From sequence record PX418213.1: a DNA stretch of 64,000 bases; one strand, given 5' to 3'. The notes below the pieces were generated by a model. That model worked only from the letters and a program-made list of their open reading frames with translations, was not told the DNA's origin and searched no databases. The position numbers were made by a program, and so were the translations under genes. Shown here one piece after another: positions 28,559 to 41,107 of the stretch (positions are counted from its first letter, which is position 1; every line of letters starts with the position of its first letter). This stretch comes from a phage.

Positions 28559-28583
28559 ATTTTATTTCCTATTTAAGTTAATT

Positions 28584-28660
28584 TGGGGTGGCTAGTGGAA
28601 TTCGAATCCACATAGGCCTGATTCACAATCAGGATCATTAACCAATTATGATATAGCCAC
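28584..28660 (-). tRNA. tRNA-His (GTG)
   Basis: extra 5' G typical of tRNA-His; anticodon arm CTGAT-TGTGAAT-ATCAG. Confidence 0.7.
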
Positions 28661-29203: not shown

Positions 29204-29223
29204 AAGATTTCCTTATAGTTAAT

Positions 29224-29313
29224 TGGCAGAAGATAATGGAGTCGAACCATCACCGTATCGCTACAGCGGGCTGGTTTTCAAGACCAGTTACGTACCACTA
29301 CGTCCTATCTTCT
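29224..29313 (-). tRNA. tRNA-Ser (TGA)
   Basis: 90 nt with long variable arm; anticodon arm CTGGT-CTTGAAA-ACCAG. Confidence 0.7.
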
Positions 29314-29326
29314 AGTATTTATTATA

Positions 29327-29674
29327 CTAATAGTCACTCGTACTAGTGAAGTTTTCTACTTTTCCACAAATTTTACAAGTCCTACGATGGTAGTAGGTAA
29401 TTTTTACTTTAGACCAGCCATCGTGATCATTACCTAGGTTTTCTGTTACTCCCCAAGTATGAGAACACTCATTTTCAATTTGCTTAGTAAGAGCGTTATA
29501 GCGAGTATAAAACTCCTCCTGAGCAATAGCAAACTCTTTCTGTAGTTTATCACGAGCAATAATAGCACGTTCCAGATATGTTAAATCTGGCATTCCAGCT
29601 TTTTCAGCAGCATCTATAATCTTATCTTCATCTAAAGATGCTAAAAACTCTAGAGCTTTATCTTTTGCTAACAT
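29327..29674 (-). CDS. hypothetical protein with C-terminal Cys pairs
   Basis: 115-aa ORF; ...CSHTWG...RRTCKICGK. Confidence 0.5.
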   Translation of the reverse strand: MLAKDKALEFLASLDEDKIIDAAEKAGMPDLTYLERAIIARDKLQKEFAIAQEEFYTRYNALTKQIENECSHTWGVTENLGNDHDGWSKVKITYYHRRTCKICGKVENFTSTSDY

Positions 29675-29693
29675 TATTATTACCTCAAGTGTT

Positions 29694-29784
29694 TGGCGGA
29701 AGAGGAGAGATTTGAACTCTCAAGCCGTTTTACCAGTCAGCCACTTTCCAAGCGGTTTTCGTCGCCAATTCGATTTGCTCTTCC
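29694..29784 (-). tRNA. tRNA-Ser (GGA), tentative
   Basis: 91 nt; acceptor GGAAGAG/CTCTTCC; T-arm GAGAG-TTCAAAT-CTCTC; long variable arm. Confidence 0.55.
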
Positions 29785-29804
29785 AATAATAAGATGATGC
29801 CTCT

Positions 29805-29893
29805 ATCACACCAGGCTGTTATGCCTCGCTGGGATTCGAACCCATTAAAACAGCTCAACCGAGATAGTAGGTTTAATTTACTCTGACCATCAA
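29805..29893 (-). ncRNA. degenerate tRNA-like element
   Basis: T-loop GGGTTCGAATCCC at 29831-29843 but no complementary acceptor strand or encoded CCA. Confidence 0.3.
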
Positions 29894-29896
29894 ATT

Positions 29897-29973
29897 TGGT
29901 GCGTGACAAGGGATTCGAACCCTCAAAACCCGACTTCTAAGGACGGTATGTATGCCAATTCCATCAATCACGC
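29897..29973 (-). tRNA. atypical tRNA, anticodon TAG (Leu codon) but class-I length
   Basis: 77 nt; acceptor GCGTGAT/GTCACGC; D-loop GAATTGG (Leu-like); loop CTTAGAA; no long variable arm. Confidence 0.45.
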
Positions 29974-29978
29974 GTATT

Positions 29979-30057
29979 TGGTGGAGAATAACGGAATCGA
30001 ACCGTTCTGATGTCCTCGGTGCAAGCGAGGTGTCCACTCCATGCAGACCCATTCCCC
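29979..30057 (-). tRNA. tRNA-Ala (TGC)
   Basis: G3:U70 pair in acceptor (GGGGAAT/ATTCTCC); anticodon arm CCTCG-CTTGCAC-CGAGG. Confidence 0.7.
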
Positions 30058-30295
30058 AAATTCTTTAGTTTACTAAGGCTATTAGCTCGGCGCAACTACA
30101 GCACCTTCGCTTCGAGCGGAAGGAACTGCGTCATCTCGCAAACCCAATACACTATTCAGTTGCCGCTGAATCTAGTGGACTAATCTAGAACTTCTCCCGA
30201 ATCGTAGGGATCGTGCTTTTTGGCAGCCAGTCCTAGGTCGAGCTAATACCTTAGTGAACTATGATGAGGATTTCTCCTCATCAATTTATATAAAT
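30058..30295 (-). ncRNA. structured leader / candidate ncRNA at 5' end of tRNA transcript
   Basis: no ORF; long-range complement AGGCTATTAGCTCG (30076-30089) with CGAGCTAATACCT (30239-30251); local hairpins. Confidence 0.35.
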
Positions 30296-30324
30296 ATTAT
30301 AACAAGAAATTAAGCATCAAGCAA
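30296..30324 (-). promoter_or_regulatory. T5-type promoter driving tRNA cluster segment
   Basis: TTGCTT, 17 bp, TATAAT; overlaps 3' end of CDS 30317-30685. Confidence 0.55.
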
Positions 30325-30685
30325 GTACATTTTTAGCGATTTCTTGCAGTTCCTTTACATCACGAACGTAAAGGTAATCAGAGCTTCCAGAGTGCATACT
30401 TTGCATAACTACACCTTCATCTGGTGCATTATCCTTCAGAGTAATTCCTAACCAGAACTCGGCAAAACTAGGTGTTATCTCACCTTGACTTGCCTTGAAT
30501 ACATCATATTCTGTAAGTTCTTGACCAGTAGATAATCCCAAATAGACAGAACTAAGATCTATCTCTTTATGAGACTCATAAAACTCCGTTAGATCTTTCT
30601 CCATATCCCAACCATGCTGTAACGCGAACTCCATTGCCACATGACTGAAATAACCTTGAATCTTGCTTGATAATTGCATTTGCAA
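30317..30685 (-). CDS. hypothetical protein
   Basis: 122-aa ORF starting with TTG. Confidence 0.5.
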   Translation of the reverse strand: MQMQLSSKIQGYFSHVAMEFALQHGWDMEKDLTEFYESHKEIDLSSVYLGLSTGQELTEYDVFKASQGEITPSFAEFWLGITLKDNAPDEGVVMQSMHSGSSDYLYVRDVKELQEIAKNVLA

Positions 30686-30704
30686 TTCCTTATTTTGAGT
30701 TAAT

Positions 30705-30778
30705 TGGTACTCGGTGATAGAATCGAACTATCGCAATCGCCGTGTAAAGACGGGGTTCTCCCATTAAACTAACCGAGC
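30705..30778 (-). tRNA. tRNA-Val (TAC), tentative
   Basis: acceptor GCTCGGT/ACCGAGT; T-arm GATAG-TTCGATT-CTATC; loop TTTACAC. Confidence 0.5.
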
Positions 30779-30782
30779 AATT

Positions 30783-30861
30783 TGGTAGATCGCCTGGGAC
30801 TCGAACCCAGAACCTTCCGATTAAAAGTCGGATGCTACTAAACCTATTGAGCTAGCGATCT
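30783..30861 (-). tRNA. tRNA-Lys (TTT)
   Basis: anticodon arm TCCGA-CTTTTAA-TCGGA; acceptor AGATCGC/GCGATCT. Confidence 0.7.
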
Positions 30862-30862
30862 A

Positions 30863-31030
30863 TTAGTAACCATTGTATACTTCTTTAATAGAGTGAATTT
30901 TCAAGTAAGGGTGATTAGTATTAAACTCTGCCATTACTTCATCCCAATTTTTACCGTAATGAGCGAGTAAGGATTTTGATGTATTCTTACCTAAACGTTT
31001 GTCACTTACTACTAATCGAAATACTTTCAT
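30863..31030 (-). CDS. small hypothetical protein (55 aa)
   Basis: hand-translated MKVFRLVVSDKRLGKN...; AGAGGA RBS. Confidence 0.4.
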   Translation of the reverse strand: MKVFRLVVSDKRLGKNTSKSLLAHYGKNWDEVMAEFNTNHPYLKIHSIKEVYNGY

Positions 31031-31050
31031 TTCGAAATCCTCTATTAAAA

Positions 31051-31128
31051 TGGAAGCGGGTGCAGGAATCGAACCTACCTCTTTCTAGCTTATGAGACTA
31101 GTGATCTCTACCAGAGATCTAACCCGCA
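31051..31128 (-). tRNA. tRNA, anticodon CAT (Met/fMet/Ile2)
   Basis: anticodon arm CTAGT-CTCATAA-GCTAG; T-arm GTAGG-TTCGATT-CCTGC; irregular acceptor end. Confidence 0.55.
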
Positions 31129-31134
31129 ATTGTT

Positions 31135-31212
31135 TGGTCTCCGTGGGAGGATTTGAACCCCCGACCCTATCGCCCCAAACGAAACGCTCTGGCCAAACTG
31201 AGCTACACGGAG
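31135..31212 (-). tRNA. tRNA-Pro (TGG)
   Basis: acceptor CTCCGTG/CACGGAG; D-arm GCTCAGTTTGGCCAGAGC; loop TTTGGGG. Confidence 0.6.
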
Positions 31213-31216
31213 AATA

Positions 31217-31375
31217 TTATTTCTTCAACCACAACAAAGATAAGCCCAACATACTAAAGCCGCTAACTAATCCGATACATTTTTCTTCTATAGTAAAAGT
31301 ATCTAGATTAAATGCTGTTATAGCTATTGGCATACACCATAATGCCATAAAAACTTGAGCTATCTTGTGTTTCAT
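31217..31375 (-). CDS. small membrane protein (52 aa)
   Basis: hand-translated MKHKIAQVFMALWCMPIAITAF...; GAAGGAAAG RBS; promoter directly upstream. Confidence 0.4.
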   Translation of the reverse strand: MKHKIAQVFMALWCMPIAITAFNLDTFTIEEKCIGLVSGFSMLGLSLLWLKK

Positions 31376-31407
31376 TTTGCTTTCCTTCTCTTCACTTTAT
31401 AAGATAT

Positions 31408-31436
31408 ATTATACAGAGAATTAAGCAGAATAGCAA
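31408..31436 (-). promoter_or_regulatory. T5-type strong sigma70 promoter
   Basis: TTGCTA, 17 bp, TATAAT. Confidence 0.6.
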
Positions 31437-31439
31437 ATG

Positions 31440-31828
31440 AATTTTTAATAAATTTACTTATTGTGTAGGCCACCTGGAGGCTACCAACCCCACGGCTGAC
31501 AAAGAAGTTTGCGAGACCTCTCTTAAATGCCAGAATAGACCCGCCGATCTATCGGAACCTACATAATAAGTAAACTTTATAGTGTCATTCTAGACAGGAC
31601 TCGAACCTGTTATCACTTGTGCGGACTTACGAGAACCATTCTTTCACTCGAATCGAACGAGCTTCTGCCCTAGCCAAGCTGGTTTCCCCATCAACCACGC
31701 TAGAATGTTTGATTGTTTTCAGTGCAAGAGTCCGAGTCTTGGACACGACCGCTTCGCAAGTACATAGGCAGCTTATCATGAGTCAGCACTTCCGAATTGC
31801 TAGCTCCGTGTTCTGCACTGAAATTTTG
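31440..31828 (-). ncRNA. structured non-coding region with tRNA-like elements
   Basis: no ORF; D-arm-like TGGTT-GATGGGGA-AACCA; two T-arm-like hairpins (CTCG-TTCGATT-CGAG and ACAGG-TTCGAGT-CCTGT); ATTCTAG/CTAGAAT complement about 120 nt apart; separate stem TTCAGTGCA/TGCACTGAA (31719-31727 with 31812-31820). Confidence 0.35.
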
Positions 31829-32176
31829 TTAATTTAATAGTAAAGTACGATCTACTTCACCATTAATTGTTCGGCACTCTTCTGGGATTGCTGGTGTAGC
31901 CTTATATTCCCACCATTCAGAACCGTCGTATTCACCACGTTCTAACCAAGTTCCGTCAGTAAACCATACATTACCATAAAGCAATTGCCCACCGAAACCC
32001 GAGTCATATTTAAAGTCTAGATTATTTAGAAAATCTTCAATATCTTTTTCTGTATAACCTACGGGCAATACCCAAACTTCTTTGTCTCCATAATAACCGA
32101 ATTCTATCTTAATACACTTAACTTCAGAATTAGTATTCTTTAGGGCAAGTAACAACTCTTCTTTAGCATTAATCAT
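31829..32176 (-). CDS. hypothetical protein
   Basis: 115-aa ORF. Confidence 0.5.
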   Translation of the reverse strand: MINAKEELLLALKNTNSEVKCIKIEFGYYGDKEVWVLPVGYTEKDIEDFLNNLDFKYDSGFGGQLLYGNVWFTDGTWLERGEYDGSEWWEYKATPAIPEECRTINGEVDRTLLLN

Positions 32177-32202
32177 AGCATATTTCTCGTGCTAGTTTAA
32201 TT

Positions 32203-32278
32203 TGGTACACCCACTAGGACTTGAACCTAGAACCCTCCGCTTAAGAGGCGGTAGCTCTAACCATTGAGCTATGGATGT
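32203..32278 (-). tRNA. tRNA, anticodon CTT (Lys-type), tentative
   Basis: acceptor ACATCCA/TGGGTGT; D-arm GCTCAATGGTTAGAGC; loop CTCTTAA. Confidence 0.5.
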
Positions 32279-32279
32279 A

Positions 32280-32438
32280 TTAAATTACTTTTTCCAGTTC
32301 ATCAGCTATGGCTTTGATTTTTTCAAAGTTTACATCACTTATAATGATACCTTCCAGTGACAGAGATATTCTAGCATTTTTCATAGCAGATTCTTTTATC
32401 TGCTCTATCTCTTCTGGAGTAAACTCCCTACGTTCCAT
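32280..32438 (-). CDS. small hypothetical protein (52 aa)
   Basis: hand-translated MERREFTPEEIEQIKESAMKNARISL...; AAGGTAGG RBS. Confidence 0.4.
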   Translation of the reverse strand: MERREFTPEEIEQIKESAMKNARISLSLEGIIISDVNFEKIKAIADELEKVI

Positions 32439-32455
32439 AGCTAACCTACCTTATT

Positions 32456-32532
32456 TGGCGCGACCGATGGGATTCGAACCCACATTCCCTCCCGTGACAG
32501 GGGAGTACCATTACCAAGCCAGCCCCGGTCGC
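32456..32532 (-). tRNA. tRNA-Asp (GTC)
   Basis: acceptor GCGACCG/CGGTCGC; anticodon arm CTCCC-CTGTCAC-GGGAG. Confidence 0.75.
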
Positions 32533-32541
32533 ATAATTCAT

Positions 32542-32727
32542 TTACTCAGCTTTGAGTTTTTCAATAGCTGCATTAAGTTCCTTAAGAAACTCTTTTCGTA
32601 CATTAAGACGATTAAGACTTACTAGTATATCATGTTTAAGTTCTTCGATGTATTTCTTCTCAACTTCAATATTGTTGAGAGTGCTATCACGATGAACCTC
32701 TAGCTGCGCAATTACATTCTTGGACAT
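32542..32727 (-). CDS. small coiled-coil protein
   Basis: 61-aa ORF. Confidence 0.4.
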   Translation of the reverse strand: MSKNVIAQLEVHRDSTLNNIEVEKKYIEELKHDILVSLNRLNVRKEFLKELNAAIEKLKAE

Positions 32728-32829
32728 GCTTGTTTCCTCAGTTATTAATGAAAATGGTATCTGTGGCTGAATTCGATGTCAGCAATGATAGCTGGTTGGC
32801 TACCGGTTTACTTAACTCTACACAGAATT

Positions 32830-32912
32830 TGGCGGGCCGTGTAGGATTCGAACCTACGTTGTCTTTCGACATGGATTAACAGTCCACCGCCAAACCGCTT
32901 GGCTAACGACCC
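32830..32912 (-). tRNA. tRNA, anticodon GTT (Asn-type) with 13-nt extra arm
   Basis: 83 nt; acceptor GGGTCGT/ACGGCCC; anticodon arm GTGGA-CTGTTAA-TCCAT; variable GTCGAAAGACAAC. Confidence 0.55.
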
Positions 32913-33064
32913 TAAATTTATATTGCTGACTAGGATTTTCACCTAGACGGAGTTAGCACCGTAGCGTGTAGCGGCATACCTCTCCAAACCGTGCCTCATC
33001 TTTCAATTACGGAGACAGTGTTCCTACGCGTGCCTGAATTGATTTAACAATTCTTTCAGCAAAT

Positions 33065-33140
33065 TGGACGACCGCATGAGATTTGAACTCACATAAAAAG
33101 GATTTGCAATCCTTCGCCTAAGCCATTCAGCCAACGGTCG
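33065..33140 (-). tRNA. tRNA-Cys (GCA)
   Basis: anticodon arm AAGGA-TTGCAAA-TCCTT; acceptor CGACCGT/GCGGTCG. Confidence 0.7.
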
Positions 33141-33188
33141 ATTTATCTTGTTCTGTCATGTTGCTTCTCCAGTTCAATTTATGTAATT

Positions 33189-33217
33189 ATTATACAGAAC
33201 TTTTGGAAACTAAGCAA
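33189..33217 (-). promoter_or_regulatory. T5-type promoter upstream of tRNA-Cys
   Basis: TTGCTT, 17 bp, TATAAT. Confidence 0.6.
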
Positions 33218-33497
33218 CTACATTTTTTAAGAATTTGATGCCTTTCTTTTTCTTCTTATATTTCCACGTTAATGGATTCTGTCGATTATGAACGCTTGAG
33301 ATCTTCGTCTCGTCAAAGTTCTTCAATATCATGTAATCACAAGATAATTGTTCTAGTGGAATGTGATCACCGTCAAAAGCGTATACATAGGGCTGTTGAC
33401 TAGCACGATAATGATAGACTTTGTTAATTCTACGTTTCAGCGACTTATCCGCGCAGTAAATAAAGAAGTTTTCAGGATGCATCAGCAGCTCCTTCAA
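33210..33497 (-). CDS. hypothetical protein
   Basis: 95-aa ORF. Confidence 0.5.
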   Translation of the reverse strand: MKELLMHPENFFIYCADKSLKRRINKVYHYRASQQPYVYAFDGDHIPLEQLSCDYMILKNFDETKISSVHNRQNPLTWKYKKKKKGIKFLKNVVA

Positions 33498-33499
33498 TT

Positions 33500-33574
33500 T
33501 GGTGCACCCTGTTCGTATCGAACGAACCTCTCAAGCTCTTCAGGCAAGCGCTAATCCATCTCAGCTAAAGGTGC
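33500..33574 (-). tRNA. tRNA, anticodon ambiguous (GAA-Phe or CTG)
   Basis: acceptor GCACCTT/AGGGTGC; T-arm GTTCG-TTCGATA-CGAAC; anticodon stem irregular. Confidence 0.45.
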
Positions 33575-33580
33575 AAATTT

Positions 33581-33660
33581 TGGCAAACCTACTAGGACTC
33601 GAACCTAGACCGTACGGTTTTGGAGACCGACATGCTGTCCAGTAACACTCTAGGAATGCA
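33581..33660 (-). ncRNA. tRNA-like element with mismatched acceptor
   Basis: T-arm CTAGG-TTCGAGT-CCTAG, variable hairpin ACCGTACGGT, 3' TAGGTTT-G-CCA; 5' strand pairs at only 5 of 7 positions. Confidence 0.35.
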
Positions 33661-33665
33661 GGAAT

Positions 33666-33742
33666 TGGCGTCCTGTGCGGGGGTCGAACCCGCAAATCCT
33701 ACCTTGAAAGGGTAGTGACTTTACCAGTTTGTCTAACAGGAC
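33666..33742 (-). tRNA. tRNA-Glu (TTC)
   Basis: acceptor GTCCTGT/ACAGGAC; anticodon arm CTACC-CTTTCAA-GGTAG. Confidence 0.75.
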
Positions 33743-33748
33743 TTAAAT

Positions 33749-33835
33749 TGGTGGGGAAAGATGGAGTCGAACCACCCGAGTCGCAATGACAACTGATTTA
33801 CAGTCAGCTCTGCTACCACTTACAGAATATTTCCC
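33749..33835 (-). tRNA. tRNA-Tyr (GTA)
   Basis: long-arm tRNA; acceptor GGGGAAA/TTTCCCC; anticodon arm GCTGA-CTGTAAA-TCAGT. Confidence 0.7.
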
Positions 33836-33967
33836 CATATTTAGAAGTATTCAAAAAATTCTAATTTAAACACTTTTAAATATGTTTCCAAATTAGGTAA
33901 CTATTATACCAAGTTTTAAGGCACTGAGCAAGTCAAATTTTAAAGAACTTGCTCAGTGCTGTATTGG

Positions 33968-34243
33968 TTAGTCGAACTTAGGAGTGACAGTTAAGGAGAA
34001 TGGAAGTTCGAAAACTTCTTCACCCTCATTACTAACAGTAATTACACGACCTTTAAGTTCAGACATTGAAATATCAATATCAGCTTTTGCATCCGGAGCC
34101 ATGCCAGCTTCAACACATTTAGCTTTAATTTCCGGCAGAAGTTCTACATCATAGAAATAAAGCCATTCAATCTCACCTTCCCAGCCTTCCCAGGATTTAC
34201 AGATTGCACTTTCAATACCAGCTGCTATAACACGATTTTGCAT
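33968..34243 (-). CDS. hypothetical protein
   Basis: 91-aa ORF. Confidence 0.5.
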   Translation of the reverse strand: MQNRVIAAGIESAICKSWEGWEGEIEWLYFYDVELLPEIKAKCVEAGMAPDAKADIDISMSELKGRVITVSNEGEEVFELPFSLTVTPKFD

Positions 34244-34273
34244 TCATTAACTCCTTCATCAATTTATATAACT

Positions 34274-34303
34274 ATTATATCAGAAATTTAAAGCAAAAGG
34301 CAA
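34274..34303 (-). promoter_or_regulatory. T5-type sigma70 promoter
   Basis: TTGCCT, 18 bp, TATAAT. Confidence 0.5.
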
Positions 34304-34333
34304 GTACATTTTTAAAAATTCTGTTTGGAGGAG

Positions 34334-34540
34334 CTAAACTCCAGATTCTTCAGCCAAGTCTAGGCTAATAAGAGATATAGCCATAATTGCCGCTCCATGT
34401 TCTTTTTCTCCAGTCTCTTTAGCTAGAGTTATAATGTCAAGAAATTGCTTATGAAAATCTGCAACCTCTTGAGTTATACCTGCCTCAGCAATCATGCCTT
34501 TAAGCATAAAACGTTGTGCAGTAATTTCAGGATTAGCCAT
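34334..34540 (-). CDS. hypothetical protein
   Basis: 68-aa ORF. Confidence 0.45.
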   Translation of the reverse strand: MANPEITAQRFMLKGMIAEAGITQEVADFHKQFLDIITLAKETGEKEHGAAIMAISLISLDLAEESGV

Positions 34541-34700
34541 GTTGTTTCTCCAGTTTCATCTTTAATAGTCTACAAATAAAATCAATGTCTTCATCCGTGC
34601 CTAGATCTCTGTCTTCAAGAGTTGCCTTGAAGTTTTTAGTCAATTCCATGAGGATAACTTCCCTAGAACGACGTGTTGGCGGAGGTGGATGTCTATACAT
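34533..34700 (-). CDS. small hypothetical protein (55 aa)
   Basis: hand-translated MYRHPPPPTRRSREV...; AAGGAAA RBS; stop overlaps next start. Confidence 0.4.
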   Translation of the reverse strand: MYRHPPPPTRRSREVILMELTKNFKATLEDRDLGTDEDIDFICRLLKMKLEKQHG

Positions 34701-34715
34701 CTTATTTCCTTAATT

Positions 34716-34792
34716 TGGTAGGGGTGGTGGGATTCGAACCCACAAAACCTGAATTTTAAGTCCAGTACCTATGCCAATTCGATTACACCCCC
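34716..34792 (-). tRNA. atypical tRNA, anticodon TAA (Leu codon) but class-I length
   Basis: 77 nt; acceptor GGGGGTG/CACCCCT; D-loop GAATTGG; anticodon arm CTGGA-CTTAAAA-TTCAG; no long variable arm. Confidence 0.5.
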
Positions 34793-34893
34793 ATGTAATC
34801 AGTTTATTAGTTGATACATATTATAGCCTAGTGAAAATCCTACTACTAGTCCCACAAACCAACCAATATAATAATCTTTTAGTTTCACAGGTA

Positions 34894-35079
34894 TTATCCT
34901 CTTTCAATATCTAGAGAAATACCACAGTTAGGATTAATACCTGTACCCTTGCAATTTGGGCAAATCCATATATTGCAAAAAGTATCTCCTGCTTCTGCAT
35001 CAGAACTTTCACCAATTCCCCTACACTCAGGGCAGGCGCATTCTTCTAGCTCTTGCTTGAGTTCTTGAAACTTGGACAT
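34894..35079 (-). CDS. small zinc-ribbon-like protein
   Basis: 61 aa; CPECRG...CPNCKG. Confidence 0.5.
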   Translation of the reverse strand: MSKFQELKQELEECACPECRGIGESSDAEAGDTFCNIWICPNCKGTGINPNCGISLDIERG

Positions 35080-35088
35080 ATAGTCTCC

Positions 35089-35277
35089 TTAGTTAATTAC
35101 TTTTGAGGCTTCTAAAGCATTAACGTAGTAAACATCTTCTACATTATACATATAGTCTACTACTTTGTCCATAGCATGGAGTTCGGATGTAGCCTTTACT
35201 AGTCTGTACCCTTGTTTAAACTCGTCCGAACGTTCTCTATCTTGTGCAAATTTAACAGAAACTATGAATAATTCCAT
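35089..35277 (-). CDS. hypothetical protein
   Basis: 62-aa ORF. Confidence 0.45.
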   Translation of the reverse strand: MELFIVSVKFAQDRERSDEFKQGYRLVKATSELHAMDKVVDYMYNVEDVYYVNALEASKVIN

Positions 35278-35296
35278 TAATTGTCCTTATTTAATT

Positions 35297-35374
35297 TGGT
35301 GGCTCCCCGAGGATTCGAACCTACGTACCTTCCGGTTATGAGCCGGGTGCTCATACCATATGAGCTTGAGAACC
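35297..35374 (-). tRNA. tRNA, anticodon CAT (Met/Ile2)
   Basis: acceptor GGTTCTC/GGGAGCC with G-U pairs; loop CTCATAA; T-stem has mismatches. Confidence 0.5.
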
Positions 35375-35380
35375 AAAATC

Positions 35381-35469
35381 TGGCGGAAGAAGTGGGAATC
35401 GAACCCACAAGGCTATATTTCAAACCGACAGATTAGCAATCTGCTGCAATACCGTTATGCTATTCTTCC
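35381..35469 (-). tRNA. tRNA-Ser (GCT)
   Basis: 89 nt long-arm tRNA; acceptor GGAAGAA/TTCTTCC; anticodon arm GCAGA-TTGCTAA-TCTGT. Confidence 0.65.
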
Positions 35470-35484
35470 GAATTTATAAGATAT

Positions 35485-35513
35485 ATTATATTAGAAATTT
35501 AGCTTCATAGCAA
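35485..35513 (-). promoter_or_regulatory. T5-type promoter upstream of tRNA-Ser(GCT)
   Basis: TTGCTA, 17 bp, TATAAT. Confidence 0.6.
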
Positions 35514-36060
35514 GAAAATTTTTCAAGTTTTCGGTAGACATCTCATCCATATCTACGGGAGAAACAAAGCCGTTTAATTTTCTAGCAAATTTTTCACCTG
35601 CAGGGTCATTATCCCCAACAGCTACCAATTTAAAAGGTAGTAATTTCAGTTGCTTTAATAATGCTTTTCCTGGAGAAGAACCCAACATTGCCAGGGCTGG
35701 ATAACCAGCGTTATGTAGCGCCACTGCCTTAAATACAGACTCAGCAATCAATACTACTTTTTCATCTCCATTGAGAGTTTCTAGTCCCCATACACACTGG
35801 GTAGTAGAATAAGTAAAATATTTAGCTTCAAAGGGGCACTTACCATGACCTTTTGGAGCAGAAGGATTATAAGTTTGATAGCCCCTCAACATCCCAGAGA
35901 AGTCATACAACGGGACTGTTAGCCATCCTTCCGGACTTAACCAGCAATGATATTTATCTGTATCAAATCCTCTAGATAAGAGGTGCTGTGTTAGCTCATC
36001 AACATTCATATTTGGTTCCTCTCTCAAATTTATAGATATATTATACTGAGAATTTAGCAT
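35491..36060 (-). CDS. Toprim-domain protein (primase-like fragment)
   Basis: VLIAESVFKAVAL...VAVGDNDPAGEKF resembles DnaG-type Toprim E...DxD motifs; only 189 aa. Confidence 0.55.
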   Translation of the reverse strand: MLNSQYNISINLREEPNMNVDELTQHLLSRGFDTDKYHCWLSPEGWLTVPLYDFSGMLRGYQTYNPSAPKGHGKCPFEAKYFTYSTTQCVWGLETLNGDEKVVLIAESVFKAVALHNAGYPALAMLGSSPGKALLKQLKLLPFKLVAVGDNDPAGEKFARKLNGFVSPVDMDEMSTENLKNFLAMKLNF

Positions 36061-36068
36061 TCAAGCAA
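36040..36068 (-). promoter_or_regulatory. T5-type strong sigma70 promoter
   Basis: TTGCTT, 17 bp, TATAAT. Confidence 0.6.
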
Positions 36069-36184
36069 TCAAATTTTTTAACTTTTTAGAGGAAAATCAT
36101 AGGGCACTTAAGGGTAGCAGATAAGTGGTGAGGACCAAAATTTGTGACCCCACTAAAAATTCAGGGGCAATTTTTAAAGACCCC

Positions 36185-36213
36185 TTGACATTTTCGCTGG
36201 GGTAGTGTAAAGT
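36185..36213 (+). promoter_or_regulatory. sigma70-type promoter for plus-strand three-gene module
   Basis: TTGACA (36185-36190), 17-bp spacer, TAAAGT; AGGAGG RBS before 36266. Confidence 0.4.
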
Positions 36214-36265
36214 ATATGTTATGGATGAGTGATCAAAGAGACACACATTTTCTATATACTAGGAG

Positions 36266-37261
36266 GTGTCAAAAATGACAGAAGAAGTAGCTAAGAGTCC
36301 TGAGACCGTCGCTAGCGTTGCAGCAGAACTGCACCGTCACGAGGAATCAGATAAGAAAAAGTGGGAGAAGGTCAGAGCCTACGAAGAAAAACATCGTGAA
36401 CACGATGATGAAGAAGATGACGATGATGAACATTGTCATAAATATGGAAAACATAAAATGCAAGAACCAGTAAACGTATTTACTAGTGGCTTCCCTGGCC
36501 TACTGGGTGGTTACCCAGCAAACGCAGGTGCTTTCGGTGGTGAAGGTATGGGACTATTCGGAGCTATCCTAATCGGTGCTCTATTAACAGGCGGATTCGG
36601 TGGATTCGGTGGATTCGGTGGACGTGGTATAGTTGGTGAAGGTACCGCAGTTGATGCAGTACTTCAGAACCAAGATACCGCTAGTATTCTAGCAGCTATT
36701 AACACTACTCGTACAGAAGCTAATCAGGGTACTGGGGCTGTTTTAAGCGCAGTTAACAATGGTTTTAGCCAGACATCCCAAAACCAGAGCCGTGATACTC
36801 AGTCTGTACTAACTACGATCTATGGTACAGGTGCTAATCTGTCTAATCAGATCTGCCAGGAAACTCGCAATGTTATTCAGGGTCAGTTCGATCTTTCTCG
36901 CCAGATTGATCAATCTTTCGCAGCTAATCAGATAGCTCGTGCACAAGATAAGTTTGATTCTGCACAGATCGCTTTCCAGCAGACTTTACAAACTAATAAC
37001 CAGTTTGCCGCTGTTCAGGCTCAGATGTGTGCTAACCAGAACTCTCTGGAACGTCAGATCGCTGAATGTTGCTGTGAACTTCAGACTGCGATCGCTGGTG
37101 TAACTACTGCGCGTATCCAGGATGAGTTAGACGCATGTCGCCTACGTGAAGCAATCGCTGCGGGTAGCGGTGCTAACGGTCAGGTAATTAATCAAATCGC
37201 TTTAAGTCTTGGTGCTATCACTCAGACTCTGGCTGGTCTGCAGGCTAAACTGCCGGCTTAA
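36266..37261 (+). CDS. glycine-zipper membrane protein with Q/N-rich coiled-coil-like tail
   Basis: 331 aa; His/acid-rich N-terminus (HREHDDEEDDDDEHCH); GLFGAILIGALLTGGFGGFGGFGG; long Q/N/S/T-rich region with ECCCE. Confidence 0.6.
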   Translation: MSKMTEEVAKSPETVASVAAELHRHEESDKKKWEKVRAYEEKHREHDDEEDDDDEHCHKYGKHKMQEPVNVFTSGFPGLLGGYPANAGAFGGEGMGLFGAILIGALLTGGFGGFGGFGGRGIVGEGTAVDAVLQNQDTASILAAINTTRTEANQGTGAVLSAVNNGFSQTSQNQSRDTQSVLTTIYGTGANLSNQICQETRNVIQGQFDLSRQIDQSFAANQIARAQDKFDSAQIAFQQTLQTNNQFAAVQAQMCANQNSLERQIAECCCELQTAIAGVTTARIQDELDACRLREAIAAGSGANGQVINQIALSLGAITQTLAGLQAKLPA

Positions 37262-37282
37262 TATTAAGGGGAGGAGCCCATT

Positions 37283-37699
37283 ATGAGTAAATATGGTTTT
37301 GTAAATAACGGACTTAATCAAAGTATGGGCTCCCAGCAGCCCGTTCCGGGTCTGGATAACCCCTACTTACAACAGTTGCAACAGCGTTTAGCAGAAGCGC
37401 AACAGATGCAGCAACAACTCCAGCAAAACCCTGGAAGTGTAAGTCCTATGCAAATGATGCAGCAAATGAGCGGGCAGTCGCAAATGTCTCAACAAATGCA
37501 GCAACAGATGCCGCAGCAGCAAGTTCAACAACAAACCCAACAACCGCAGGTTTCTGCGGAAGGACAGGCAGTACTAGCCCTTTTCGAAGACTTCGCAAAG
37601 ACAGAGGATGGGAAACAGCTTGTATCACTTATGGGTAAGTTTAATAGCTTCTGCCAAAGCCAAGTTGCAAAAGCTCAAAATGGTGGTAATAACTCCTAA
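37283..37699 (+). CDS. Gln/Met-rich low-complexity protein
   Basis: 138 aa; central QQLQQRLAEAQQMQQQLQQ...QQMQQQMPQQQVQQQTQQPQ; GGAGG RBS. Confidence 0.55.
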   Translation: MSKYGFVNNGLNQSMGSQQPVPGLDNPYLQQLQQRLAEAQQMQQQLQQNPGSVSPMQMMQQMSGQSQMSQQMQQQMPQQQVQQQTQQPQVSAEGQAVLALFEDFAKTEDGKQLVSLMGKFNSFCQSQVAKAQNGGNNS

Positions 37700-37708
37700 G
37701 GAGAAATT

Positions 37709-37903
37709 ATGTGTTGCAGAAAATCTGTTTCGTGCTGCCCAATGCCTGTAGCACGTTGTTGCTCTCCAGCAATGTTTACGCAAATACCGGCGTTCAATCC
37801 GTTTGCCTTTAAGCCTACTCTTATCCTGCCCCCTAGAGTGGATTTTCAGTCAAGATTGGCCTCCCGTATGGGTGGTTGCTGTACACCGAGAGTGTGGTTC
37901 TAA
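37709..37903 (+). CDS. small Cys-doublet-rich peptide
   Basis: 64 aa with four CC doublets (MCCRKSVSCCPMPVARCC...GGCC); AGGAGA RBS; followed by terminator. Confidence 0.45.
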   Translation: MCCRKSVSCCPMPVARCCSPAMFTQIPAFNPFAFKPTLILPPRVDFQSRLASRMGGCCTPRVWF

Positions 37904-37913
37904 ACCAAAAACA

Positions 37914-37950
37914 AAAGCCCCTGCCGAAAGGTAAGGGGCTTTTTCTTTTG
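37914..37950 (+). terminator. rho-independent terminator
   Basis: AGCCCCT...AGGGGCT hairpin followed by TTTTTCTTTT. Confidence 0.65.
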
Positions 37951-37959
37951 CCTTAAATA

Positions 37960-37994
37960 CAGAAAAGCCCGCGCTCTCGGAGGAAACGCGGGCT
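37960..37994 (-). terminator. rho-independent terminator for SPFH gene
   Basis: GCCCGCG...CGCGGGC hairpin with U-run on minus strand. Confidence 0.6.
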
Positions 37995-38018
37995 TGGTTC
38001 GAAGATTACGTGTAACTA

Positions 38019-38966
38019 TTACTTGTTACGCATATCCATGATCATTTGACCATCGTAGCCAGTACCTACCACAGTCTGAGGTACACCACCTTGATATTTC
38101 TGAGCACGAATCATCTCAACTTCCAGTTGTTTCCAACGAATCATCTCAGGAGTAATAGTACGTTGCAATGCGGCGTTAGCTTCAGCTTCTTTCTTAGCTG
38201 CGTACAGTTTAGCATCTGCGTCACGTTCATTAGCAATAGCTTGGTTGTTGCGAGCTTCACGATCTGCTTCTGCTTGTTTAACCTTCTGCTGTGCTTCTTG
38301 TTCAACACGAGCCAGTTCAGCTTTTGCAGCATTAACTTGCTCTTCACGAACTTTGGTATTCTGTACCTGCTCCATGATTACCGGTGGCAAAGTAATATCC
38401 TGAAGGAACACCTGCTTAACTGTGTAACCATATGGGCGTGCATACTCTTCAACTTCCTGTTGAATTGCAGTTTGCAATTGAGCCTGAATTTTAGCATCAA
38501 ACAAATCTTGTGCTTTAGGTACAGACTTACCAAACTCACGAATAGTAGACAGTAATTTTTCAGTTACATATTTGTCTAACGCTTGATCCTGAGTACCTGC
38601 ATTAATACGGTTAATCGGTGCCTTAGAACCATCAAACTGCAACATAACAGTCAGGTCAACAGTGGATTTAAACTTATCCTGACTAGGAACCTGAAGTTTA
38701 TCTAATTTTAGAGCAATATCTTTTGTACTAAAAGTATCGAAAGAAGCAAAAGGATTTACAATATGAAAGCCGGGTAATACTGGATTAGGGTCTACTTTAC
38801 CCAGGAAAGTCTGGGTTTTAACAGTACCGTCTTGAACAACAGTATAGGAGTTAAGGGCCAGAACTAAACCTACCAAACCAACTGCAGCACCAATACCCCA
38901 ACGTTTGATATTACGCATCAATTTTTGCTCATAAGTCAGTTCTTTAGTGTTTTTAGTAGCAAACAT
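38019..38966 (-). CDS. SPFH/band-7 (prohibitin/HflKC-like) membrane protein
   Basis: 315 aa; N-terminal TM (WGIGAAVGLVGLVLAL); band-7-like core; C-terminal coiled coil. Confidence 0.65.
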   Translation of the reverse strand: MFATKNTKELTYEQKLMRNIKRWGIGAAVGLVGLVLALNSYTVVQDGTVKTQTFLGKVDPNPVLPGFHIVNPFASFDTFSTKDIALKLDKLQVPSQDKFKSTVDLTVMLQFDGSKAPINRINAGTQDQALDKYVTEKLLSTIREFGKSVPKAQDLFDAKIQAQLQTAIQQEVEEYARPYGYTVKQVFLQDITLPPVIMEQVQNTKVREEQVNAAKAELARVEQEAQQKVKQAEADREARNNQAIANERDADAKLYAAKKEAEANAALQRTITPEMIRWKQLEVEMIRAQKYQGGVPQTVVGTGYDGQMIMDMRNK

Positions 38967-39000
38967 ATATTTCCTTTGTTTTAGTTACAGTTAATAAAAT

Positions 39001-39075
39001 TGGCCGAGGTGACAGGATTCGAACCTGCATAAAGGAATTTAGAAGACTCCTGCCTCTCCCTTAGACTACACCCCG
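39001..39075 (-). tRNA. tRNA-Arg (TCT)
   Basis: acceptor CGGGGTG/CACCTCG; anticodon arm GGAGT-CTTCTAA-ATTCC. Confidence 0.7.
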
Positions 39076-39599: not shown

Positions 39600-40396
39600 T
39601 CTAAGTATTTTTAAGAATTCTCATAAAAACTCTTAAAAATACAGACGATACCGGGAGAGTCATAAGTCTCACTCATTAAGTATTTCAAGACAAAATACGG
39701 TAACGTCTATTATTTTCCAGTTTAAGTCAGGGTGACTTAGTGGTTATGTCCTGCGGTATATTGAGGACTCGGTTAGGCTTGGGGTCATGACTTCCCACCT
39801 TTTGCTGCTACTCAACAGGAGTTATCGCGAATTACCTGTGCTATTGTGCACCATTAGTGACATCTCTCATGTCAGCATTTCCCACTTTGTGGATAGCTTG
39901 AAAAACTACTCCGATATGGAGAAAGAACTTCACTATCCTAGAATACCTTCTAAAGTTCTTCTTTAGCCTGGACATAGTTAAATCGTAATAAAACTATTCA
40001 GCAGACTGGTTGGTTAGTCTGGAACCAACTACCGCGTGGTTTAGGCAGTGCGCAACTAACCTCGGAAGCTTTTACGTTAAAAGCACCAGTTATCCAGTTC
40101 TTACCGACCGTAGGATTCGAACCTACATCTTCCACCAGTTACGACTTGATAATACCAATTATACTAGGACGGCAGTGTTACTACATAAGTGATTTCCACA
40201 CCCCACTATTTATAAATTAGAGAAGAGTTTAGGGGAGAGGTTTCAGACGCCTCATTTTACACGTTCTAGCCACTAACCGGGATTGCCGCCCCCTGTGTAC
40301 TAGTTTTACAACTAACCCACCGACTCTATTCAATGCGCTCCGCTTGGGATTCTGCACTCAGCGTAATCGGCTCGCTGTTCCCTAATTTATGAATAT
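39600..40396 (-). ncRNA. about 800-nt non-coding transcribed region with degenerate tRNA-like element
   Basis: no ORF of 60 aa or more; lies between promoter 40397-40425 and gene 39084-39584; T-loop GGTTCGAATCC at 40113-40123 with imperfect acceptor. Confidence 0.3.
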
Positions 40397-40425
40397 ATTA
40401 TACAGAATTTATAAGCATTTAGCAA
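40397..40425 (-). promoter_or_regulatory. T5-type strong sigma70 promoter
   Basis: TTGCTA, 17 bp, TATAAT. Confidence 0.6.
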
Positions 40426-40433: not shown

Positions 40434-40877
40434 TTAATTAAATTCTCCAGCAATCTGAGCAGCAGTACCACCATCATAACGCCCAGGAAATTCTTCCTTA
40501 ATCGCTTTCATCAGCATACCCTTTGTAATTCCAGGGTTTAGCTTAACTAATTCTGCAAAGTATTTACGAATCTCAGTATCAGATAACTGAGGAGGCAGAT
40601 ACTCCTGCAACCATTTATTTAGAATGTACTCATACTGAGCAGACTGCAAGCTATAACTATCAAGATCTTGACCATGAAGTTTAGCTTTCATCTGGTTAAT
40701 GCTTTTTAGTTGAGCTTTGAGATAAGACACAAATTGTTCAGAAGTGATGAAATCTTTATCAATACGCTGAAGATCCCCAATTATGGTCTGATAGCTTTTA
40801 GCGACTTCTTTATCAGAACCATTAAACTTAGAATCCTGCAAAGCTCTACGCAAAACATCTAAAATATTCTCTTCCAT
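40434..40877 (-). CDS. GatB/YqeY-domain protein
   Basis: 147 aa; C-terminal ...ITKGMLMKAIKEEFPGRYDGGTAAQIAGEF resembles YqeY family. Confidence 0.55.
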   Translation of the reverse strand: MEENILDVLRRALQDSKFNGSDKEVAKSYQTIIGDLQRIDKDFITSEQFVSYLKAQLKSINQMKAKLHGQDLDSYSLQSAQYEYILNKWLQEYLPPQLSDTEIRKYFAELVKLNPGITKGMLMKAIKEEFPGRYDGGTAAQIAGEFN

Positions 40878-41047
40878 TATTTCATTCCTAACGCTTGGTT
40901 AAAAGATTGTTCTGTCATAACTGCTGAGACTTTGGCGAAATCAAACTTTTTAGGGTTCGTAGTGATTTCAGCAACGTTAGAAGTTTTAACAGTTTTCGTA
41001 GTACGAATACCGCGAGTGTTAACACCAATAATTACAACTGATTTCAT
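40877..41047 (-). CDS. small hypothetical protein (56 aa)
   Basis: hand-translated MKSVVIIGVNTRGIRTTK...; GAGGAAG RBS; TAATG overlap with YqeY-like gene. Confidence 0.4.
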   Translation of the reverse strand: MKSVVIIGVNTRGIRTTKTVKTSNVAEITTNPKKFDFAKVSAVMTEQSFNQALGMK

Positions 41048-41078: not shown

Positions 41079-41107
41079 ATTATACAGAAATTTAAGTAGT
41101 TGAGCAA
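41079..41107 (-). promoter_or_regulatory. T5-type sigma70 promoter
   Basis: TTGCTC, 17 bp, TATAAT. Confidence 0.55.

What the first reader, a model, noticed from the sequence alone, without database searches (positions are those of the whole stretch)
40434..40877. YqeY/GatB-domain protein encoded next to the tRNA cluster
YqeY-like domains are linked to tRNA/translation functions. Placement beside ~26 phage tRNAs suggests a role in tRNA charging or quality control.
Basis: partly seen in the sequence, partly recalled or inferred. Interest (0 to 1): 0.45.

Follow-up and report, generated by a model that had tools for sequence, protein, structure and literature searches.

The report
Phage YqeY protein beside tRNA genes
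This T5-like phage gene really does encode a small YqeY-family protein at the edge of the phage's tRNA gene block. It is already annotated in public records, it is not the "tRNA amidotransferase" many of them call it, and its function is still untested.

Summary
ORF 40434-40877 (minus strand, 147 aa) is a real gene under purifying selection in a T5-like phage. It lies 260 nt upstream of the first of 26 co-oriented tRNA or tRNA-like genes.

Pfam YqeY alone is just below threshold (25.4 vs 27 bits). Homology is nevertheless solid:
- A family profile reaches full-length Pfam YqeY proteins.

It is a free-standing YqeY/Aim41 protein, not GatB. It has no catalytic domain, no Lys-rich GatB motif and no link to tRNA-Gln/Asn.

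The tRNA neighbourhood is not a T5 accident. A tRNA lies within 10 kb in 22 of 38 dereplicated viral YqeY clusters, always on the same strand. The figure is 2 of 39 for a viral ThyA control, and 3 of 80 cellular homologues within 6 kb. The link is regional, not operonic: tRNA density is flat over ±10 kb and the promoters are separate.

A non-catalytic tRNA-binding helper for the phage tRNA set is the best guess (about 0.45). It is unproven. The same idea is already in the literature, so novelty is low.

The parts
40434..40877 (-). CDS for a free-standing two-domain YqeY/Aim41-family protein (147 aa). It is the ortholog of T5 gene T5.081.
   Evidence: ORF. PHROG 1460, E 3e-47. Pfam YqeY 25.4 bits. 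Profile and structure evidence. T5 ortholog. dN/dS 0.19.
40877..41047 (-). CDS for a 56-aa basic protein (DUF7616, pI 10.4). Its stop codon overlaps the YqeY ATG by one base (TAATG), so the two are probably translationally coupled. It is the ortholog of T5.082.
   Evidence: Pfam DUF7616, E 4.7e-33. PHROG 5077. The overlap is conserved in all 10 T5-like loci that carry both genes. pI. Found only in T5-like loci. No significant structural match.
41079..41107 (-). Sigma-70-type early promoter for the DUF7616-YqeY pair: -35 TTGCTC (41107-41102), 17-nt spacer, -10 TATAAT (41084-41079). A Shine-Dalgarno GAGAGGAAG lies at 41062-41054. It is homologous to the annotated T5 promoter P-D/E 33.
   Evidence: Alignment to the annotated T5 promoter, 92% identical.
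40397..40425 (-). Next promoter (homologue of T5 P16-17; TTGCTA-17-TATAAT), directly after the YqeY stop codon. It drives the RNAX-like RNA, the tRNA-like element and tRNA-Arg. It therefore marks the end of the YqeY transcription unit and the start of the tRNA region.
   Evidence: Promoter scan. T5 annotation. Alignment.
40102..40173 (-). tRNA-like element inside the RNAX-homologous region. It is the nearest tRNA-type gene to the ORF.
   Evidence: Rfam tRNA model, 35.5 bits against a gathering score of 29. Annotated 'tRNA-OTHER' in phage ende. Missed by ARAGORN.
26362..39075 (-). Block of 25 tRNA genes interspersed with small ORFs, co-oriented with the YqeY gene.
   Evidence: ARAGORN finds 24. 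Rfam adds 35300-35374.

Best explanation
**What is shown.** The ORF encodes a stand-alone, non-catalytic YqeY-family protein. It has an N-terminal helical domain and a C-terminal three-helix bundle of the kind found at the tail of GatB/GatE. It is transcribed from its own sigma-70-type early promoter as a two-gene unit with the small basic protein DUF7616. Its genes in phages preferentially lie in tRNA-rich regions on the same strand as the tRNAs. It is not an amidotransferase.

**What is inferred.** The most likely way it works is as a tRNA-binding accessory factor. The conserved C-terminal pocket (M123-K124-x2-K127 ... G132-R-Y134-D135-G136) would dock on the elbow/D-loop region of tRNAs, as the homologous GatB tail is modelled to do. 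This would help the phage's own set of about 25 tRNAs to be matured, charged or kept usable. The host (E. coli/Salmonella) has no YqeY of its own. Because the isolated domain has little activity in trans elsewhere, it probably acts while tethered to a partner, either a host enzyme or DUF7616. That it binds tRNA, which tRNAs, and to what end are all inferred.
For: **Family and fold.**

**The C-terminal domain is the constrained part.** Mean identity within the T5-like family is 79% for residues 96-147 against 35% for residues 46-95. Most invariant residues lie there. The motif M-K-x2-K...G-x-Y-D-G is shared by 115 of 148 distant representatives. It aligns with the B. subtilis YqeY-C motif.

**The homologous GatB tail binds tRNA.** Its conserved hydrophobic pocket, ringed by basic residues, is modelled on the tRNA D-loop, and the tail is essential for tRNA binding (PMC2811023). 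A YqeY domain fused to D. radiodurans GlnRS lowers KM and raises kcat for tRNA-Gln (PMC1865053).

**Genomic association with tRNAs in independent phage lineages.**
- pf16: 283 bp upstream of 8 tRNAs.
- Vibrio River4: inside a 23-tRNA cluster.
- RSP15: 669 bp downstream of a tRNA cluster (7 tRNAs in that locus).
- Jumbo phage RsoM2USA: 3.5 kb from 6 tRNAs.

**Systematic test.** A tRNA lies within 10 kb in 22 of 38 dereplicated viral clusters against 2 of 39 for viral ThyA (Fisher p 3.4e-7). For contigs >=90 kb the figures are 14/19 against 1/10 (p 0.0017). All 216 tRNAs are on the YqeY strand. Cellular homologues with the same YDG motif have a tRNA within 6 kb in only 3 of 80 loci.

**Host lacks yqeY.** PMC13374519.
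Against: - No experiment on any free-standing YqeY shows tRNA binding.
- The D. radiodurans domain is inactive when added in trans (PMC1865053).
- The protein is mildly acidic (pI 5.5; C-terminal domain 6.8), which is unusual for an autonomous RNA binder.
- This allele has Gly where most relatives have the Lys of 'YDGK'.
- tRNA density around viral YqeY genes is flat from 0 to 10 kb. The link could therefore reflect a shared accessory-gene region or a genome-level correlation (tRNA-rich large phages), and not function.
- The ThyA control is not matched for phage lineage.
- 16 of 38 viral clusters, and the phages muut, phiM19, PA5oct and Aeromonas P19, have no tRNA within the 6-20 kb of flank examined.
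- The YqeY fold also serves as a protein-protein bridge (NUQM/Aim41; PMC12487887).
- The gene has its own promoter, separate from the tRNA transcription units.
Confidence: 0.45

Rival explanations
1. **Protein-protein adaptor with no RNA role.** The YqeY fold is used as a scaffold or bridge that binds a host or phage protein. The tRNA neighbourhood would simply reflect that tRNA blocks in large phages are hot spots for small accessory genes.
For: - The protein is acidic.
- tRNA density is flat with distance.
- The N-terminal and middle segments vary strongly between otherwise near-identical phages (35% identity), as expected for an interface that co-evolves with a variable partner.
- The region also carries unrelated accessory genes: cell-wall hydrolase, SPFH, cRec.
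Against: - The most conserved part is the C-terminal GatB-tail-like bundle, not the N-terminal domain that NUQM uses.
- The enrichment near tRNAs is strong against two controls and recurs in unrelated lineages.
Confidence: 0.3
2. **Ribosome or translation-initiation cofactor.** In many bacteria yqeY is co-transcribed with rpsU (ribosomal protein bS21). The phage copy would act on the 30S subunit to favour phage mRNAs, not on free tRNA.
For: - The rpsU-yqeY operon linkage is reported in many bacteria (PMC1865053; PMC13374519).
- The gene is paired with a small, very basic protein (DUF7616, pI 10.4).
- One viral contig (L045) carries a bS21 homologue 3.5 kb from its YqeY gene.
Against: - DUF7616 is not bS21-like. 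Pfam gives only DUF7616. The predicted fold is beta-beta-alpha-beta-alpha with no significant structural match.
- DUF7616 is confined to T5-like phages.
- bS21 is adjacent in 0 of 80 cellular YDG-type loci and in only 1 of the fetched viral YqeY loci searched (L001-L090).
- No experiment links YqeY to ribosomes.
Confidence: 0.1
3. **A true tRNA-dependent amidotransferase subunit.** This is the RefSeq/PHROG label. It would mean the protein converts Glu-tRNA-Gln or Asp-tRNA-Asn to the amide form.
For: - PHROG 1460 is named 'tRNA amidotransferase', and many records copy that name.
- The C-terminal domain is homologous to the GatB tail (PMC2811023).
Against: - At 147 aa there is no room for the roughly 400-aa GatB cradle and helical domains.
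- No GatB_N or GatB_Yqey Pfam hit, and no GatB chain among the top structural matches.
- The GatB-specific Lys-rich KxGKxK motif is absent (residues 114-120 read NPGITKG).
- tRNA-Gln/Asn are not enriched next to viral YqeY genes: 1 of 22 nearest tRNAs and 9% of all flanking tRNAs.
- E. coli uses GlnRS and AsnRS and has no GatCAB (general knowledge).
Confidence: 0.02

Closest known systems
Free-standing bacterial YqeY (B. subtilis 1NG6; C. jejuni 8XJE; V. parahaemolyticus 8XJG; Pfam PF09424)
   Different: - Only 10-19% identical.
- The motif is G-R-Y-D-G instead of G-K-A-D-G. The YDG form is also found in Caulobacterales, Leptospiraceae and Bdellovibrionota.
- Encoded by a virus whose host lacks yqeY.
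- Lies beside tRNA genes, not beside rpsU.
Tail domain of GatB/GatE (tRNA-dependent amidotransferase)
   Same: The C-terminal three-helix bundle is homologous. In GatB it forms a conserved hydrophobic pocket ringed by basic residues, modelled on the tRNA D-loop (PMC2811023).
   Different: - No cradle or catalytic domain and no GatA/GatC partners.
- Lacks helix alpha14 and the Lys-rich KxGKxK motif.
- Not detected by the GatB_Yqey Pfam model.
- No Gln/Asn tRNA link.
C-terminal YqeY domain of Deinococcus radiodurans GlnRS
   Same: The same domain family, acting as a non-catalytic enhancer of tRNA affinity. It is the only experimentally supported function for a YqeY module.
   Different: There the domain is covalently fused and works only in cis. 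Here it is a separate polypeptide, so it would need a non-covalent partner to act the same way.
Aim41 / NUQM (mitochondrial YqeY-family protein; bridging subunit of Pichia pastoris complex I)
   Different: A structural protein-protein bridge in a respiratory complex. It has no counterpart in a phage-infected E. coli cell.
YqeY-like genes of other large phages (pf16 gp65, RSP15 ORF100, River4 gp114, T5.081; PHROG 1460)
   Same: Same family and same size. Often beside or inside tRNA clusters on the same strand. Already noted and speculated on for pf16 (PMC5587285).
   Different: The T5-like copies are uniquely paired with DUF7616. The T5-like alleles are mosaic, with a variable N-terminal half and a conserved C-terminal domain.

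Membership tests
YqeY / Aim41 family (Pfam PF09424) | Single-sequence match to the family profile above Pfam's curated cutoff | tested here: inconclusive
   E 1.7e-5 and 25.4 bits against a cutoff of 27, covering the C-terminal third only. 17 of 33 close relatives hit PF09424 at E<0.01, and some carry a precomputed PF09424 assignment. The cutoff is operational, not a biological criterion.
YqeY / Aim41 family (Pfam PF09424) | Profile-level homology to bona fide members over the full length | tested here: met
   The family profile finds 730 representatives at E<=1e-3, nearly all 135-155 aa and matched end to end. 8 of 10 sampled pass the PF09424 cutoff with 27.6-95.7 bits. The profile also gives a collinear match to 1NG6, residues 7-138 against 5-141.
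YqeY / Aim41 family (Pfam PF09424) | Two-domain all-helical fold: N-terminal helical domain plus C-terminal three-helix bundle | tested here: met
YqeY / Aim41 family (Pfam PF09424) | Conserved C-terminal motif M-x3-(K/M)...G-x-(A/Y)-D-G | tested here: met
   M123, K127, G132, Y134, D135 and G136 are invariant or nearly invariant in the family. The motif aligns with B. subtilis M...GKADG. The YDG form is present in 115 of 148 representatives.
YqeY / Aim41 family (Pfam PF09424) | Biochemical activity | not testable with these tools
   None is defined for the family. The depositors describe the solved proteins as being of unknown function.
GatB subunit of tRNA-dependent amidotransferase | N-terminal cradle (catalytic) and helical domains, about 400 aa | tested here: not met
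GatB subunit of tRNA-dependent amidotransferase | Lys-rich KxGKxK motif and extra helix alpha14 in the tail (PMC2811023) | tested here: not met
   The loop between the last helices reads N114-P-G-I-T-K-G120. This is the YqeY-C type, without the insertion.
GatB subunit of tRNA-dependent amidotransferase | GatA and GatC partners encoded in phage or host | not tested
   Only ORFs near the gene were scanned and none is amidase-like. That E. coli lacks GatCAB rests on general knowledge, not on a test here.
GatB subunit of tRNA-dependent amidotransferase | Functional link to tRNA-Gln / tRNA-Asn | tested here: not met
   The nearest tRNA is Gln or Asn in 1 of 22 viral clusters. Gln plus Asn make up 8.8% of the 216 flanking tRNAs.
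Bacterial rpsU(bS21)-yqeY operon | bS21 gene immediately upstream and co-transcribed | tested here: not met
   The upstream coupled gene is DUF7616, not bS21. No bS21 homologue was found in the T5-like loci.

The most novel reading that the evidence does not exclude
Phage YqeY is a dedicated 'tRNA escort'. By clamping the elbow of the phage's own tRNAs, possibly together with DUF7616, it would keep them usable when the host fires tRNA-targeting defences such as PARIS AriB, Retron-Eco7 PtuAB, PrrC-type anticodon nucleases or Schlafens. Alternatively it would channel them to host synthetases. Either role would give the YqeY family its first assigned function, and would add a protein component to the known 'phage tRNAs as counter-defence' strategy.
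Probability: 0.1. Interest if true: 0.7.

Novelty: already known. Interest (0 to 1): 0.3.

Why it matters
Free-standing YqeY proteins are widespread in bacteria, mitochondria and large phages. Structures have been available since 2003, yet no function is known.

T5-like phages offer an unusually clean test bed:
- The host has no yqeY.
- The phage gene sits at the edge of a tRNA block whose biological value has recently been shown. T5 tRNA-Lys defeats PARIS and T5 tRNA-Tyr defeats Retron-Eco7 (PMC11464382).
- T5 deletion genetics exist.

A deletion phenotype or a tRNA pull-down would speak to the whole family.

On the practical side, the widely propagated labels 'tRNA amidotransferase' and 'recombination-related exonuclease' for this gene are wrong and should be replaced by 'YqeY-family protein'.

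Tried and rejected
1. **DUF7616 as a phage analogue of bS21, or a conserved YqeY partner.** Rejected. It occurs only in T5-like loci. Its predicted beta-beta-alpha-beta-alpha fold has no significant PDB match (best E 0.36, T4 Dmd). Only one of five single-sequence models was confident.
2. **A universal protein neighbour of viral YqeY.** None found. The best candidates are a metallophosphoesterase (6 of 46 loci), a DUF2828/DUF7788 protein (5 loci) and a GIY-YIG endonuclease (4 loci).
3. **The 'histidyl tRNA synthetase' next to YqeY in phage muut.** No Pfam support, so it was not used as evidence.
4. **The GC-rich 150-nt insert downstream of the gene as a structured RNA.** Folding z-score is 0.40, no better than shuffles. 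The only Rfam hit there is noise (Hrs13, E 0.97).
5. **Defence or anti-defence annotation.** No PADLOC hit for YqeY, DUF7616, cRec or the 166-aa ORF.
6. **'YDG' subfamily as phage-specific.** Rejected. It is also chromosomal in Caulobacterales, Leptospiraceae and Bdellovibrionota.
7. **Technical dead ends.**
   - A 40-sequence alignment was too diverse for the locus scan.
   - The single-sequence ThyA control reached only T5 relatives.
   - No paper mentions T5.081 or T5.082.
   - Domain-wise dN/dS was not interpretable, because saturated pairs drop out unevenly.

Full report
**1. What is in the sequence**

The window is part of a T5-like phage genome (Demerecviridae, Markadamsvirinae). The region 39000-42000 matches 449 phage records, mostly Salmonella and Escherichia phages, at up to 99% identity.

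The ORF named in the finding exists exactly as stated: 40434..40877, minus strand, ATG start, 147 aa. Its product is 100% identical in many deposited phages and is found by tblastn in 455 phage records. Across 11 distinct T5-like alleles the median dN/dS is 0.19, so it is a real, selected gene. It is the ortholog of T5 gene T5.081.

ARAGORN finds 24 tRNA genes between 26362 and 39075, all on the minus strand. Rfam's covariance model adds 35300-35374 and a degenerate tRNA-like element at 40102-40173. The ORF therefore sits at the upstream edge of the tRNA block. It is 260 nt from the tRNA-like element and 1.36 kb from tRNA-Arg.

**2. Is it a YqeY protein?**

On its own the sequence is borderline:
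- Pfam YqeY (PF09424) gives E 1.7e-5 but 25.4 bits against a cutoff of 27, and only for residues 90-142.
- NCBIfam gives nothing.
- B. subtilis YqeY (1NG6) is hit at E 0.04.
- PHROG 1460 is hit strongly (3e-47), but that is a phage family named by inference.

I therefore built a 33-member alignment from database homologues. All of these come from T5-like phages, at 45-99% identity. Three lines of evidence follow from it:
- **Profile search.** Against 1.8 billion representatives the profile finds 730 proteins at E<=1e-3. Nearly all are 135-155 aa and match from end to end. Eight of ten sampled pass the Pfam YqeY cutoff, up to 95.7 bits.
- **Foldseek.** The AlphaFold2 model is confident (pLDDT 89.3, eight helices). 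Its six best Foldseek chain hits in the PDB are all YqeY crystal structures, from three entries (8XJE, 1NG6, 8XJG; TM up to 0.69).

Homology and fold are thus established. 'GatB domain' is true only at superfamily level. The GatB_Yqey Pfam model is not hit, and no GatB or GatE chain is among the top matches.

**3. What it is not**

RefSeq and PHROGs call it 'tRNA amidotransferase'. Many GenBank records call it 'recombination-related exonuclease'. Neither name is supported:
- At 147 aa the protein has no room for the GatB catalytic cradle.
[quoted passage not shown] The corresponding loop reads NPGITKG.
- tRNA-Gln and tRNA-Asn are not enriched beside viral YqeY genes: 1 of 22 nearest tRNAs, and 8.8% of 216 flanking tRNAs.
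- Nothing in the sequence or fold resembles a nuclease.

**4. Local anatomy**

The upstream ORF at 40877-41047 encodes a 56-aa basic protein (pI 10.4) of family DUF7616. Its stop codon overlaps the YqeY start by one base (TAATG). This overlap is kept in all ten T5-like loci that carry both genes, even though the YqeY alleles diverge to roughly 55% identity while DUF7616 is almost invariant.

The pair is preceded by a sigma-70-type promoter: TTGCTC, 17-nt spacer, TATAAT at 41107-41079, with a strong Shine-Dalgarno. This region is 92% identical to the annotated T5 promoter P-D/E 33.

Directly after the YqeY stop codon lies a second promoter (40425-40397), homologous to T5 P16-17. In T5 that promoter drives 'RNAX', a 719-nt stable RNA of unknown function that runs into tRNA-Arg. 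YqeY is therefore next to the tRNA transcription units but not part of them.

Within the family the C-terminal domain is the constrained part. Mean identity to the window protein is 79% for residues 96-147, against 35% for residues 46-95 and 57% for residues 1-45. Most invariant residues lie in that domain.

**5. Is the tRNA neighbourhood meaningful?**

*Individual lineages.* YqeY-like genes occur in many unrelated large phages.

| Phage | Lineage | Position relative to tRNAs |
|---|---|---|
| pf16 | T4-like, Pseudomonas | 283 bp upstream of 8 tRNAs |
| River4 | Vibrio | inside a 23-tRNA cluster |
| RSP15 | Ackermannviridae-like, Ralstonia | 669 bp downstream of a tRNA cluster (7 tRNAs in the 12.4-kb locus) |
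| RsoM2USA | jumbo phage | 3.5 kb from 6 tRNAs |
| muut | rV5-like | none within 20 kb |
| phiM19 | Sinorhizobium | none within 8 kb |
| PA5oct | jumbo, Pseudomonas | none within 8 kb |
| Aeromonas P19 | T4-like | none within 6 kb |

*Systematic scan.* A scan of viral contigs with a diverse YqeY profile gave 80 loci, which fall into 38 clusters at 60% identity. Among those clusters:
- A tRNA lies within 2 kb in 11, within 5 kb in 18, and within 10 kb in 22.
- All 216 tRNAs are on the same strand as the YqeY gene.
- 170 of the tRNAs are upstream and 46 downstream.

*Controls.*
- The same pipeline on viral thymidylate synthase gave a tRNA within 10 kb in 2 of 39 clusters (Fisher p 3.4e-7). For contigs >=90 kb the figures are 1/10 against 14/19 for YqeY (p 0.0017).
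- Cellular homologues carrying the same G-x-Y-D-G motif (Caulobacterales, Leptospiraceae, Bdellovibrionota) have a tRNA within 6 kb in only 3 of 80 loci. One of those three is a phage-like array of 25 tRNAs.

*Limits.* tRNA density around viral YqeY genes is flat at about 0.3 per kb per flank from 0 to 10 kb. The association is therefore with a tRNA-rich module, not with a specific adjacent tRNA. The ThyA control is not lineage-matched, so a genome-level correlation (tRNA-rich phages carry YqeY) cannot be separated from local linkage.

**6. How it most likely works**

Established knowledge:
- The GatB/GatE tail, which superimposes on YqeY-C, is required for tRNA binding and is modelled on the D-loop through a conserved hydrophobic pocket ringed by basic residues (PMC2811023).
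- A YqeY domain fused to D. radiodurans GlnRS enhances tRNA-Gln affinity, but only in cis (PMC1865053).
- Free YqeY has no known function.
- In many bacteria yqeY is co-transcribed with rpsU (PMC1865053, PMC13374519).
- E. coli lacks yqeY (PMC13374519).
- The fold can also be a protein bridge, as in NUQM/Aim41 (PMC12487887).

Putting this together with the conserved C-terminal pocket motif (M123-K124-x2-K127...G132-R-Y134-D135-G136) and the phage-specific tRNA linkage, the best-supported model is a non-catalytic tRNA-binding helper. It would support maturation, charging or protection of the phage's own tRNA set, probably while tethered to a partner. I put this at about 0.45.

The rivals are:
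- a protein-protein adaptor whose location is incidental (0.3);
- a ribosome or initiation factor (0.1);
- a true amidotransferase subunit (0.02).

Arguments against the favoured model:
- the acidic pI of 5.5;
- the lack of trans activity of the Deinococcus domain;
- the flat distance profile;
- the many viral loci without nearby tRNAs.

**7. Side tests that led nowhere**

- DUF7616 is confined to T5-like phages. It has no significant structural match and is not bS21-like.
- No protein family is a universal neighbour of viral YqeY.
- PADLOC finds nothing for YqeY or its neighbours.
- The GC-rich insert downstream does not fold better than shuffled sequence.
- No paper mentions T5.081 or T5.082.
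- The known viable T5 deletions (29191-32442 and 30661-38625) stop short of T5.081 at 41617-42051 (PMC11464382). Its dispensability is therefore unknown.

**8. Novelty and verdict**

The gene, its YqeY assignment and the speculation about tRNA charging are already in public annotation and literature:
- 'YqeY protein domain-containing protein' in several T5-like records;
- pf16 gp65 (PMC5587285);
- 'amidotransferase' genes listed among tRNA functions of jumbo phages (PMC5852040, PMC7760394).

What this analysis adds:
- a firm structural confirmation;
- rejection of the amidotransferase and exonuclease labels;
- a quantified, controlled demonstration that viral, but not cellular, YqeY genes lie in tRNA-rich regions on the same strand;
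- the conserved coupling to DUF7616 in T5-like phages.

The finding is real but ordinary. Its interest lies in T5 being a convenient system for giving the YqeY family its first function.

Noticed in passing
window 39076-40430 (minus strand): The stretch between the YqeY stop codon and tRNA-Arg corresponds to T5 'RNAX', a stable RNA of unknown function, but it is modular. The window has a ~150-nt GC-rich insert (~40385-40235) that T5 lacks and phage ende shares in part. It also has a degenerate tRNA-like element (40102-40173) and a 166-aa ORF (39084-39584) with no Pfam, PHROG or PADLOC hit. That ORF is present in ende and absent from T5.
   Followed up: partly
window 35300-35374 (minus strand): An additional tRNA reaches the Rfam gathering score (40.3 bits) but is missed by ARAGORN. 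Conversely, ARAGORN's tRNA-Ser (29224-29313) and tRNA-Ala (29979-30057) are absent from the Rfam list.
   Followed up: no
window 41570-41887 (minus strand): Two genes upstream of YqeY is a 105-aa cRec (PF20274, cyclic-phosphate-processing receiver) protein, the ortholog of T5.084. The jumbo-phage comparative study predicts this domain to process 2',3'-cyclic RNA ends or cADPR and finds it linked to RNA ligases (PMC7824862). This suggests the region is RNA- or NAD-conflict related.
   Followed up: partly
window 40434-41047; loci L091-L097, L103, L001, L002: YqeY alleles are mosaic among otherwise near-identical T5-like phages. The N-terminal and middle part diverges to about 17-35% identity while the C-terminal domain stays at 67-100%. 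The overlapping upstream DUF7616 gene is almost invariant.
   Followed up: partly
window 40434-40877 and its orthologs in GenBank/RefSeq: Propagated mis-annotations: 'recombination-related exonuclease' and 'tRNA amidotransferase' for a 147-aa YqeY-family protein. Copies labelled 'Salmonella enterica' sit on 108-113 kb contigs that look like T5-like phage genomes inside bacterial assemblies.
   Followed up: partly
L040 8350-9768 (and 4 other viral loci; RSP15 ORF108): A 450-470-aa DUF2828/DUF7788 protein lies immediately upstream of YqeY in 5 of 46 viral loci, next to tRNA clusters. RSP15 annotates it as 'RNA-binding protein'. A metallophosphoesterase recurs about 1.3 kb downstream in 6 loci.
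   Followed up: partly
L045 4291-4587: A viral contig encodes a bS21 ribosomal-protein homologue (E 6e-16 to E. coli bS21) about 3.5 kb from its YqeY gene and next to tRNAs. One of those tRNAs ARAGORN calls tRNA-Pyl, meaning it has a CUA anticodon.
   Followed up: no
L205 (Salipiger mucosus DSM 16094 scaffold9, 164133-176555): A bacterial scaffold carries 25 tRNA genes within 12 kb around a YqeY gene, the nearest 338 bp away. This looks like a phage-derived tRNA array integrated in, or co-assembled with, a bacterial genome.
   Followed up: no
window 46798-47652 (minus strand): The window's thymidylate synthase is a different allele from that of phage T5. The phmmer match to T5 ThyA is only E 1.7e-25, no better than to ThyA of unrelated viral contigs. 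This points to gene replacement within the T5-like group.
   Followed up: no
L003 19416-19988 (Escherichia phage muut gp076): The gene annotated 'histidyl tRNA synthetase' directly upstream of muut's YqeY gene encodes only 190 aa and has no Pfam hit at E<=0.001. The label is probably unreliable.
   Followed up: partly
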